A DNA stretch of 35,091 bases from Malacoraja senta. Lineage: Eukaryota. The position numbers were made by a program. The stretch is taken from the NCBI GenBank assembly GCA_038087875.1, contig JAXLNO010004433.1:186001-221091 (forward strand). Direction: 5' to 3'. Shown here piece after piece: positions 30,001 through 33,000 of this stretch (position 1 is its first letter; each line of letters starts with the position of its first letter).

Positions 30001-33000
30001 GCACCGTACCTTGAAAGCTTTTCACTTCCCGACTGATACTGGTGTTCGAGGGGGGATGAGACACTGTACAGCCGAAGACTGAGCCTTTCTTCCAATCCTC
30101 TGAACTCACAGTCAGGAAGTGGCTGGCACTGAAAGTCGCCCCCTGCTCCAGAGCAGTCGGTGGTGGAGGAGATCGGGGCTCCGTCTTTCTCCCAAGTGAT
30201 GTTTATGAGGTCCGGGTAGAAACCAGAGAGCACACATTCGAGGGTGGCTGTGTGGCTATGCGTGGTCTCTTGATGAGCTGGAGGCAGCAGGCTGACCTTG
30301 AGTCTTTTTGTTTCAACTGGAACAGAGGAGCAAAGTAGATGTGAGACCCTCTTCCTCAAGGGCCTGTCCCACTTACGCAACTTTTTCAGCGACTGCCAGC
30401 ACCCGTCATTGGTCGTTACAGGTGGCCGAAAATGTTCAACATGTTGAAAATCCAGAACAAGGTACGACTCTTTTGGCAACTACTCACGACCATACAGGCT
30501 TCACCCCGCGACATGTCGCCAGTATGGTCATGAGTAGTCTCCTCAGTCTCCCAAAGAGTCGTAGAGTCTTCTGGTCACCGTTGGATTTTCAACATGTTGA
30601 AAATTTTCGGTTACCTGCTGCGACTATGACGGGTGCCGGTAGTCGCAGAAAAAAATTTCGGAGCTCCCGCAACGGCAACTTCTCCCGCCCGAGTTGCGGG
30701 GTTGAAAATGACCTGGAGCGGGGCCTTACATCGCACAATGGCTTTAAATGGCCGCGGGACTTGCTAGCGCCCGCCAAGGGCTCCAACATCAAGACCCGGA
30801 GCGCGGCCTTGCATCGCCCGGCGCGGCTTTAATGGCCGCGGGACTTACCATCGCCCGCTGGGGGCTTTGACTTTGACATCGGGAGGAGAATGAGGAGAGC
30901 AGGGGAGAGACAAGACTTTGCCTTCCATCACAGTGAGGAGGAGATTCACTGTGATGGATGTTTGTGTGTAAATTGTGTTGTGTCTTGGTTCTTTGTACTT
31001 GTTTGTATGACTGCAGAAACCAAATTTCGTTTGAACTTAGGTTCAAATGACAACAAATAAATTGTATCATTGTATCAAAATTGCGGAATTGGGACAGGCT
31101 CTTTATGGAAAGCCAGGGCAGAAATCCAAACAGATGTCTTATAAAAGAACTTTAAGATGTTTATGTCATCACATAAAAGACTGATCAATGGCTAGATTTA
31201 TTGCAAAAGACTGACCAATGGCAGATCAAACTATACACTGGCTAGATTATTGAAAACAGAATAGCAGAAAAACTCGTGTTAAATAGCAGGTTGGGTGTTT
31301 TGACTGAAAAAACCCCAGAACAAAGGAGCCGTCAACTGGGATTTGACTCTCTTTCCCATCACCATGATCAGCTGGTACATTACAGGGGCACAATTTGATA
31401 TGTGCTTTGCTTGGAACCCCTGCAGCATCTATTAGTAATACTGAGCAACATGAATGAGAAACGCTACTTTTCTCCTTGTAGGCCAAGCCTGGGATTCCCT
31501 TGGTTTAAGAATGTCACATGCTGATATCGCAGTCTTACTCTGACCATGTGTCTCACCATCTCTGAAACCTTTACCACAAACACAACCTTCTGTAAAGGTG
31601 TCATTCTTCCAACTCTGGGCACTCATAAGCCTGCACTCCTTTCACCTTTCACCTACTACGCATTCATTGAAAATGTAATAACTTTCTCTTTCACTAGCTG
31701 GTTCCACTCCATCACCCTGCAAAACAGAAACCGCCTGTTGAATGTGGTCAAGGTCTGCTCAAAAATCATTGAGCAGCCCGTCCGAACTCTCGCTGCTCTA
31801 TGCGACCAACAGTCTGGGAGGTTGACACGCAGGATTCTTCAGGACCCCTCTCACATCCTGTTTCCTGAGTTTGAGTGGCTCCCCTCAGGACGCAGACTTC
31901 GCTGTCCGGGTTGCCGGACACAGAGGAGGAAGGCAACCTTCATCCCCAGGGCTGTCCTGCTTTTTAATGCTGATCACTGACTCGAACATGTGAAGTGAAA
32001 TGGCCTTCTATATGCACTTTCTGGTTGAAGCAGTAAGGAAGCACTTTAGAGGATGTTACTATGTGTTGAAGATTATTACTATGTGTTGAATGTAGATGTG
32101 CTGTGTGTGTTGTGTGATTGTGCAGTGTGTCTGTGAGATGCGTGTGTTGGTTGATTGTGCAGTATGAGTGCTGCTTATGTTTGTTGATTGTGTCTCTTTT
32201 TTATTTATTTTTTATTTTATTTTTTTTATTTTTTTTAGAAGCTACTGTAATGCGCCCTTTTAAATTGCCCCTCGGGGACGAATAAAGTGCTTTGACTTGA
32301 CTTGACTTGTACCACTTGCTGTGTCACGTTGCAGTGTTGCTCACAAGCACCAAAGCAGACTCAGCAGATTCATCCCCCGCATCTCTCCTCCTTGAAATGA
32401 AGAATGACAGTAAATGTCAATCCAGAAGTTGTCGATCTGGTGACATGAGCTCAAAATTCCAACCCATGATCTGGGAATTTCAATTTTATTAATAAATGCA
32501 TTCTGACGTAAAATGCTTCCGTTGGTGGTGACGCATGTCGATAGTTCACTGCTGCACTTCATGGAAGGGAATGTGTCATCATATCTGTTCTGGCCAGTAC
32601 GCAACTACATACCTGTAGCAAAATGGCTACAGACTAGTGTCAGTTTAGTGTGACTGTGCTCCAGTGAAGACTGAGGCGTTTCAGTAATTGATAGAAACTA
32701 TCTGAAATAAATTAGTGGCTGACTCTCCAGCGACAGCAGAGCAAATCATAAATGGTTAGAAGTATCAAGGTCCCCCTCCTGCTGCAGATTGGGATGAAAT
32801 TCTGCATTAGATGTATTTTCCCGTTTCACTTCAGAATCATTGGGGGAGGAAGAGAATGATTCATTCATTCATTGCCGCTGACTGACCTACACTGCCACTT
32901 GTCCTCTGAAGCAGCATCATGAGTCTAGTTCCACTCAGCTCACTCTCGTGTGTGCACTGTTTACACACTCAGTCACTTGGGCCACATGAGCTGATTTTGC

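What the first reader, a model, noticed from the sequence alone, without database searches (positions are those of the whole stretch)
30010..30316. Isolated IgW/IgNAR-type constant exon with intact splice sites and a frameshifting deletion
All C1-set hallmarks are present (LLPP, TLEC, GFYP, W, FS, EDW, C, H). The PTALEQ and SHPPS motifs match my recollection of the third constant domain of nurse shark IgNAR, whose homologue also occurs in long IgW. By that comparison about 11 nt are missing at ISST|PTAL, next to a TCC/ACC repeat. The exon is otherwise clean, yet no equally preserved neighbouring Ig exon is visible within 5 kb upstream or 30 kb downstream, and it lies 4.6 kb from an unrelated promoter. 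It may be an orphaned or dismantled Ig heavy-chain cluster, or an exon retained longer than its neighbours.
Basis: partly seen in the sequence, partly recalled or inferred. Interest (0 to 1): 0.68.

Follow-up and report, generated by a model that had tools for sequence, protein, structure and literature searches.

The report
Lone frameshifted antibody constant-domain exon
A single, well-preserved antibody-type constant-domain exon with one reading-frame break sits alone among retrotransposons; it is most likely a leftover of a broken-up antibody heavy-chain gene, which is an ordinary kind of genomic relic.

Summary
On the minus strand, 30316..30010 is a 307-nt exon with an AG acceptor, a GT donor and phase-1 ends. 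It encodes an immunoglobulin C1-set domain (Pfam E 9.2e-18 when read through with X; each half alone passes the curated cut-off). One +1 frame change lies between 30167 and 30139.

A one-base surplus in the G5 run 30143-30139 fits the Pfam model equally (64.1 vs 64.8 bits).

Among solved structures, nurse shark IgNAR C3 has the highest identity in two Foldseek lists (39% and 37%; all other rows 30% or less). The models were poor. The value is also below the 47.2% reported for IgNAR C3 across six sharks. So this is IgW/IgNAR-like, not a shown IgNAR C3 orthologue.

No other Ig exon or half-exon turned up in the 35 kb, which is mostly LINE retrotransposon sequence.

- Best reading (0.5): an orphaned pseudo-exon of a heavy-chain-type gene.
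- Main rival (0.27): a live exon carrying an assembly error.

Read mapping, wider flanks and reference IgW/IgM sequences were out of reach. Interest is low.

The parts
30010..30316 (-). Ig C1-set constant-domain exon, 307 nt, phase 1 at both ends once the frame is corrected. It has Cys27, Trp41, Cys82 and His86 (numbering of the read-through P0003) and two N-x-S/T sequons (NIT, NTS).
   Evidence: Pfam C1-set 64.8 bits, E 9.2e-18. PDB per-domain scores: 48.7 bits (human IgG CH3), 47.2 (lambda C), 44.6 (UrIg2 C1).
30317..30336 (-). Splice acceptor AG (30318-30317) with its polypyrimidine tract.
   Evidence: Read directly: ctttgctcctctgttccag|TT.
30004..30009 (-). Splice donor GTACGG directly after the exon's last base G (30010).
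   Evidence: Read directly: CAAG|gtacgg. So a downstream exon once followed and this is not a light-chain-type terminal C exon.
30139..30167 (-). Zone in which the +1 frame change must lie. It holds the TCC TCC ACC ACC repeat (30170-30159) and the G5 run (30143-30139).
   Evidence: Both frames are open here. Read-through with the break at 30167-30164 gives 64.8 bits; with the break at the G run, 64.1 bits. Of 8 printed per-domain PDB comparisons, 7 favour the early break and 1 (lambda C) the late one; the human IgM whole-chain score also favours the late break.
29430..29911 (+). 3' tail of a retrotransposon copy, ending 99 bp from the exon's donor.
   Evidence: Self-blastn: 76.7% identical, inverted, to 27693-28167. 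ORF 29499-29726 reads like the tail ORF at 27809-28126.
30382..30653 (.). Palindromic, foldback-like element beginning 65 bp from the exon's acceptor.
   Evidence: Nested inverted repeats I1-I3, with arms 77-89% complementary.

Best explanation
This is a stranded pseudo-exon. It is one constant-domain exon of an antibody heavy-chain-type gene of the IgW/IgNAR kind that has lost its reading frame and its neighbours. It encoded a C1-set domain with the GFYP motif that solved CH1/CH3-type pairing domains carry. Its AG/GT sites and phase-1 ends show it was an internal exon of a multi-domain chain. Today it carries a one-base-surplus frame change (equivalent to 3n+2 bases lost). It sits in a roughly 470-bp unique island (29912-30381) between retrotransposon insertions. 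No partner exon lies within 4.8 kb upstream or 30 kb downstream, so it can no longer contribute to a working antibody chain.

Shown: the domain identity, the splice sites, the frame break and the isolation within the window.
Inferred: that the break is real rather than an assembly slip, that the parent gene was a heavy chain of the IgW/IgNAR lineage, and that the neighbours were lost or pushed away by rearrangement and LINE insertions.
For: - Domain and frame break.
- Antibody-type: the best 60 PDB chains shown are 59 antibody heavy chains or fusions plus UrIg2. The C half alone is best matched per domain by chicken IgY heavy-chain domain 2 (29.6 bits). The N half alone is best matched by lambda C (30.5 bits).
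- IgNAR C3 has the highest identity in both Foldseek lists: 39% and 37%.
- Internal exon: donor site and no stop codon in the Ig frame.
- Isolation. No transmembrane (CART-like) motif either.
- The surroundings are LINE sequence. RVT_1, Exo_endo_phos or zf-RVT were found in 5 of 10 large ORFs tested. Repeat copies abut the exon.
- Heavy-chain pseudogenes and partial CH exon sets are in print. Nurse shark has 9-12 functional Ig-mu genes and three pseudogenes, and clusters lie 82 to >200 kb apart (PMC5192425, passages). Lungfish has an IgN pseudogene of four CH exons and IgM pseudogenes (bioRxiv 10.1101/2022.05.20.492783, passages).
Against: - The exon is very clean for a dead gene. It has one lesion only, no stop codon in either used frame, intact splice sites, and a Pfam score (64.8 bits) three times the cut-off.
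- One candidate break point is a G5 homopolymer, a classic site of sequencing error.
- The window shows only 4.8 kb upstream, so upstream partner exons may simply lie outside it.
- The source organism was not determined. In very large genomes, introns of tens of kb are normal, and isolation in 35 kb would then mean little.
- The assignment to IgW/IgNAR rests on identities from Foldseek alignments of low-confidence models with weak E-values (all above 0.001).
Confidence: 0.5

Rival explanations
1. It is a working exon of a live heavy-chain-type gene whose introns have been stretched by retrotransposons. The frame break is an assembly or sequencing error, for instance one extra G in the G5 run 30143-30139, or a null allele on the sequenced haplotype.
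For: - Only one lesion; splice sites, both Cys, Trp and His are kept; Pfam 64.8 bits.
- With the break placed at the G5 run the exon would be 306 nt, in phase at both ends, and scores 64.1 bits.
- Lambda C (47.2 to 48.5 bits) and the human IgM chain (99.2 to 103.5 bits) score slightly higher with that reading.
- The assembly has gaps and a duplicated block around two N runs, so it is not flawless.
Against: - No partner exon in 30 kb downstream or 4.8 kb upstream.
- Published shark clusters hold six to eight C exons per cluster, though those passages do not give the exon spacing (PMC5192425, passages).
- 7 of 8 printed per-domain PDB comparisons favour the break in the non-homopolymer TCC/ACC stretch.
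Confidence: 0.27
2. It belongs to a non-rearranging or non-antibody C1-set gene, such as a UrIg/UrIg2-like multi-C-domain receptor, whether alive or dead.
For: - Nurse shark UrIg2 V-C1-C2-C3 (9dmx) ranks third of 10236 PDB matches. Its C1 gives 44.6 bits and its C2 41.9 bits, close to the best single-domain score of 48.7.
- UrIg2 has 9-11 C-domain exons, and its gene models are often incomplete (PMC12227049, Results read).
- With the late break, the frame-A Cys aligns with a Cys of UrIg2 C1.
Against: - Identity to UrIg2 C1 is about 34% (30 of 89 aligned positions, my count). The paper reports 50-60% conservation of UrIg/UrIg2 C domains among elasmobranchs.
- IgNAR C3 is more similar (37-39%).
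- In the first Foldseek list, MHC and TCR chains are only 16-23% identical.
Confidence: 0.1
3. The exon has been kept because it is now used for something else, for instance spliced into another transcript.
For: Only its good preservation and intact splice sites. The first frame stays open for 174 codons across the exon.
Against: - Read in the first frame, the second half is not Ig-like, and the exon would end in a different phase.
- No host gene, promoter link or partner exon was found.
- Nothing here tests expression.
Confidence: 0.03

Closest known systems
IgNAR constant domain C3 (nurse shark, PDB 4q9c) and its IgW counterparts
   Same: C1-set fold. It has the highest sequence identity of all rows in both Foldseek lists (39% and 37%). 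It is an internal heavy-chain domain encoded by one exon (PMC11641339, passage). IgNAR C1 and C3 are the dimerising domains, and the last four IgNAR C domains are homologous to IgW C domains (PMC4622739, passages).
   Different: Identity is below the 47.2% reported for C3 across six sharks (PMC11767079, Table 1 passage). No C2 or C4 exon lies beside it, and the frame is broken. No IgW sequence could be compared.
Immunoglobulin heavy-chain pseudogenes and partial CH exon sets (orphon-like relics)
   Same: A disabled constant-region exon away from a complete gene. Such pseudogenes are reported in nurse shark (three Ig-mu pseudogenes; PMC5192425) and lungfish (a four-exon IgN pseudogene and IgM pseudogenes; bioRxiv 10.1101/2022.05.20.492783).
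   Different: Here a single exon is seen, with only one lesion. Whether more relic exons lie outside the window is unknown.
UrIg2 C1/C2 domains (nurse shark, PDB 9dmx)
   Same: C1-set domains of a multi-C-domain chain, with per-domain scores (44.6 and 41.9 bits) close to the best.
   Different: About 34% identity only, lower than to IgNAR C3. No VJ exon or repeated C2/C3 exon pairs are in the window.
Mammalian and avian heavy-chain and light-chain constant domains (IgG CH3, lambda C, IgY domain 2)
   Same: Best per-domain HMMER scores: CH3 48.7 bits, lambda C 47.2 bits. For the C half alone, IgY domain 2 gives 29.6 bits.
   Different: Roughly 30-40% identity, that is family-level likeness only. 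A light-chain C exon would end in a stop codon, whereas this one ends in a splice donor.

Membership tests
Immunoglobulin C1-set domain (Pfam PF07654) | Score above the curated Pfam cut-off | tested here: met
   64.8 bits against a cut-off of 21 for the read-through; 38.7 and 25.6 bits for the two untouched halves.
Immunoglobulin C1-set domain (Pfam PF07654) | B-strand Cys, C-strand Trp and F-strand Cys of the Ig fold | tested here: met
   Cys27, Trp41 and Cys82 in P0003. HMMER aligns them to the same residues of CH3, lambda C and UrIg2 domains.
Internal constant-domain exon of an Ig heavy-chain-type gene | One domain per exon with phase-1 acceptor and donor | tested here: met
   AG|TT at 30317/30316 and CAAG|gt at 30010/30009. 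Each end is phase 1 in its own frame; 307 nt means the two ends disagree by one base.
Internal constant-domain exon of an Ig heavy-chain-type gene | Neighbouring C exons, V-D-J segments or TM exons in the same orientation | tested here: not met
   None in the window. Sequence beyond the window could not be seen.
IgNAR C3 orthologue | Closest to IgNAR C3 among reference domains | tested here: inconclusive
   Highest identity in both Foldseek PDB lists (39%, 37%; others 30% or less). The models were poor, and no IgW or shark IgM reference is among the solved structures listed.
IgNAR C3 orthologue | Identity in the range seen between shark IgNAR C3 sequences | tested here: not met
   37-39% against 47.2% reported across six shark species (PMC11767079, Table 1 passage). 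Decay of a pseudogene could lower the value somewhat.
IgW (IgD-equivalent) long-form C domain | Groups with an IgW C domain in a tree or search | not testable with these tools
   No IgW sequence was available.
UrIg / UrIg2 | 50-60% identity to UrIg/UrIg2 C domains of other elasmobranchs | tested here: not met
   About 34% to nurse shark UrIg2 C1 (30 of 89 positions), against the 50-60% stated in PMC12227049.
Ig light-chain constant exon | Terminal exon ending in a stop codon shortly after the domain | tested here: not met
   No stop in the Ig frame within the exon, and a GT donor follows at 30009-30008.
Pseudogene (unprocessed) | A disabling lesion that is real in the genome | tested here: inconclusive
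   The frame change is in the assembled sequence. Reads could not be checked, and one candidate site is a G5 run.

The most novel reading that the evidence does not exclude
The exon is a live, or only just disabled, part of an undescribed heavy-chain-type gene of the IgW/IgNAR or UrIg kind. Its exons would be spread over far more than 35 kb by LINE insertions. That would be an antibody-like gene outside the compact cluster format, perhaps a distinct domain lineage, given only 37-39% identity to the nearest solved domain.
Probability: 0.08. Interest if true: 0.55.

Novelty: new member of a known kind. Interest (0 to 1): 0.25.

Why it matters
If it is a relic, it adds one more data point on how antibody gene clusters are duplicated, broken up and eroded by retrotransposons. 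That is useful for annotating the locus but not surprising. It would matter more if the wider flanks showed a complete gene with very long introns, or if a tree showed a constant-domain lineage that is neither IgM, IgW, IgNAR nor UrIg.

Tried and rejected
I stopped that step, so this source stayed unchecked.
I used stop-free ORFs instead.
- Fetching PDB chains as stored proteins for pairwise alignment: not possible.
- AlphaFold2 without an alignment gave poor models (pLDDT 45.7 and 58.1). The Foldseek matches are therefore weak: 0 of at least 500 at E<=0.001 in each search. I use only their identity column.
- The second Foldseek list is led by IgE Fc and MHC class II beta chains (18-26% identity). 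Fold likeness alone does not separate antibody from MHC C1-set domains.
- PDB sequence searches rank multi-domain chains first, so single-domain entries such as 4q9c never reached the 60 rows shown.
- Full-text searches for nine peptide strings taken from the exon found 0 papers.
- Rfam at gathering thresholds gave 0 matches and tRNA search gave 0.
- Light-chain C exon: rejected (donor site, no stop). Processed pseudogene: rejected (splice sites and intron-like flanks kept).
- Not used: the genome-contig collection (prokaryotes only), complex prediction, and the closed protein and contig searches.
Table S1 and the supplementary figures of PMC12227049, and Figures S1-S2 of PMC11767079, probably hold the reference sequences that would settle the isotype.
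- The source organism was not determined. I do not take the window for human.
The only read-throughs were of this single exon with X at the break.
- The three N runs (2925-3413, 3819-4246, 25514-25695) were left as they are.

Full report
**What is there**

The finding lies on the minus strand. The acceptor is ...ctttgctcctctgttccAG|TT (AG at 30318-30317). The donor is ...TTTCAAG|GTacgg (GT at 30009-30008). Between them lie 307 nt, 30316..30010.

From 30314 one frame reads ETKRLKVSLLPPAHQETTHSHTATLECVLSGFYPDLINITWEKDGAPISS. The frame one base further on then reads PPTALEQGATFSASHFLTVSSEDWKKGSVFGCTVSHPPSNTSISREVKSFQ. The exon begins with two bases of a codon and ends with one. This is the phase-1/phase-1 layout usual for Ig-domain exons (from my own knowledge). 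But 307 = 3n+1, so the two ends disagree by one base.

**Is it more than chance?**

Yes. I read the exon through with X at the break (protein P0003). Pfam's C1-set model gives 64.8 bits, E 9.2e-18, against a curated cut-off of 21.

The two untouched halves pass on their own, with 38.7 and 25.6 bits. The window holds 667 stop-free stretches of 30 aa or more, so correcting for multiple tests changes nothing.

**Where and how big is the lesion?**

- Pfam leaves profile positions 44-50 unmatched between the halves. That is about four residues, and it is where the figure of 11 comes from.
- HMMER alignments to CH3, lambda C and UrIg2 C1 open gaps of 2-4 residues at this spot, so the loop varies in length.
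- Both frames are open across 30167-30139.
- I therefore made a second read-through with the break at the G5 run 30143-30139 (P0004). It reads ...ISSTTDCSGAxATFSAS... and scores 64.1 bits. Pfam cannot tell it from the first.

Per-domain scores against solved structures lean towards the early break:

| Domain | Early break | Late break |
|---|---|---|
| CH3 (chain 2rcj_C) | 48.1 | 44.2 |
| CH1 | 32.0 | 25.9 |
| CH2 | 15.6 | 11.7 |
| CH3 (hybrid Fc) | 48.5 | 44.3 |
| UrIg2 C1 | 44.6 | 43.9 |
| UrIg2 C2 | 41.9 | 40.2 |
| UrIg2 C3 | 26.3 | 23.9 |
| Lambda C | 47.2 | 48.5 |
| Human IgM chain (whole) | 99.2 | 103.5 |

The identity to IgNAR C3 is also a little higher with the early break: 39% of 105 columns against 37% of 101.

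A single extra base in a homopolymer is not excluded, and the deletion size is not established.

**What kind of C1-set domain?**

- The 60 best PDB chains shown, out of 10236 matched, are antibody heavy chains or fusions, plus nurse shark UrIg2. That ranking sums over domains, so single-domain entries never appear in it.
- Per domain, the best scores are human IgG CH3 (48.7 bits), lambda C (47.2) and UrIg2 C1 (44.6).
- The C half alone is best matched by domain 2 of chicken IgY (29.6 bits, about 40% identity over 45 residues by my count).
- The N half alone is best matched by lambda C (30.5 bits).

No homologues could be collected, so AlphaFold2 ran on single sequences and gave poor models (pLDDT 45.7 and 58.1). 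Foldseek against the PDB gave no match at E<=0.001.

The second Foldseek list is led by IgE Fc and MHC class II beta chains. Fold likeness alone says only 'C1-set'.

The identity column is still informative. In both lists, 4q9c (IgNAR constant domain C3) stands out: 39% among 47 rows and 37% among 45 rows. Every other row is 30% or less, including IgNAR C1 (4q97, 30%).

I could not view a residue-level alignment, so the PTALEQ and SHPPS matches themselves remain unverified.

**Is it an IgNAR C3 orthologue?**

Probably not. A paper comparing IgNAR of six shark species reports 47.2% identity for C3 (PMC11767079, Table 1, seen as a passage). 37-39% to the nurse shark domain falls below that.

A review states that the last four IgNAR C domains are homologous to IgW C domains, and that C1 and C3 mediate dimerisation (PMC4622739, passages). 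A paralogue of the IgW/IgNAR lineage, a more distant species, or drift after inactivation would all fit. None could be tested, because no IgW, shark IgM or other reference sequences were within reach.

UrIg2 is a weaker candidate. Identity to its C1 is about 34%, against the 50-60% conservation reported among elasmobranchs (PMC12227049, Results read).

A light-chain C exon is excluded by the donor site and the missing stop. A processed pseudogene is excluded by the retained splice sites.

**Surroundings**

The window is mostly retrotransposon sequence.

- Five of ten large ORFs tested carry reverse transcriptase, endonuclease or zf-RVT domains.
- A retrotransposon tail copy (29430-29911) ends 99 bp from the donor.
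- A palindromic element (30382-30653) starts 65 bp from the acceptor.
- The exon therefore sits in a unique island of about 470 bp.

No other Ig exon was found on either strand:

- tblastn with the exon's translations found only itself below E 0.1.
- A C..W..C domain pattern found no other Ig-like match.
- B-strand, F-strand, V-end and J motifs, and looser half-domain motifs, gave only chance-looking hits.
- No transmembrane motif turned up.
- 0 of 10 nearby minus-strand ORFs hit an Ig family at E<=1.

These tests would find a preserved exon or half-exon. They could miss a badly eroded one. The window shows only 4.8 kb on the upstream side.

**Most likely explanation**

This is an orphaned pseudo-exon of a heavy-chain-type gene (confidence 0.5).

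- Published work describes shark clusters holding six to eight C exons each, lying 82 to >200 kb apart, and mentions pseudogene clusters (PMC5192425, passages).
- Partial CH pseudogenes are reported in lungfish (bioRxiv 10.1101/2022.05.20.492783, passages).
- A donor site with nothing to splice to for 30 kb, plus a frame break, fits such a relic.

Against this reading, the exon is remarkably clean and one candidate break is a homopolymer. That keeps the assembly-error reading alive (0.27), the more so because the source organism and its usual intron sizes are unknown to me.

A UrIg-like or other non-antibody gene gets 0.1. Retention for a new use gets 0.03.

**What was left out**

- The window's three N runs were left untouched.
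- I do not take the contig for human.

**Verdict**

The thing is an ordinary kind of relic, or an ordinary exon with an error, of modest interest.

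Noticed in passing
window 25230-25513: CpG-rich stretch (CpG observed/expected 0.9 in 25001-25500). It carries a CCAAT box, repeated TGACGT/CGTCAC motifs and GCCGCCATTT, and ends at an N run. Whether it belongs to a gene or to a repeat is unknown.
   Followed up: partly
window 2761-4490: Two N runs (2925-3413, 3819-4246) are each flanked by the same sequences: 2761-2924 matches 3655-3818 at 99.4%, and 3414-3656 matches 4248-4490 at 100%. 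This is a tandem duplicate of about 0.9 kb that may be real or an assembly artefact.
   Followed up: no
window 4406-8108 (+): Nearly full-length LINE with endonuclease, reverse transcriptase and zf-RVT domains in two long overlapping ORFs in different frames. That is one frame change in an otherwise open element, which suggests a young insertion. ORF1-like reading frames lie at 1263-1868 (+) and 9593-10393 (-), with no Pfam hit.
   Followed up: partly
window 30382-30653: Nested inverted repeats form a foldback-like element of about 270 bp, 65 bp from the exon's acceptor.
   Followed up: no
window 14341-14902 and 33767-34970: A 23-nt tandem array (TGAATGGGGGGATCAGTACAGGA, about 15 copies) and a purine-only GA-rich low-complexity tract of about 1.2 kb. 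The latter gives long spurious ORFs.
   Followed up: no
window 30155-30153 (-): If the frame change lies at the G5 run, the domain carries an extra Cys (…TTDCSG…). HMMER aligns it with a Cys of nurse shark UrIg2 C1. The UrIg2 paper reports a C1-C1 interchain disulfide, but I could not check that it is the same residue.
   Followed up: partly
window 22816-23436 (+): A reverse-transcriptase ORF also matches Pfam ALKBH8_N (74.5 bits). The match lies inside a retrotransposon ORF, not in a DNA-repair gene.
   Followed up: no
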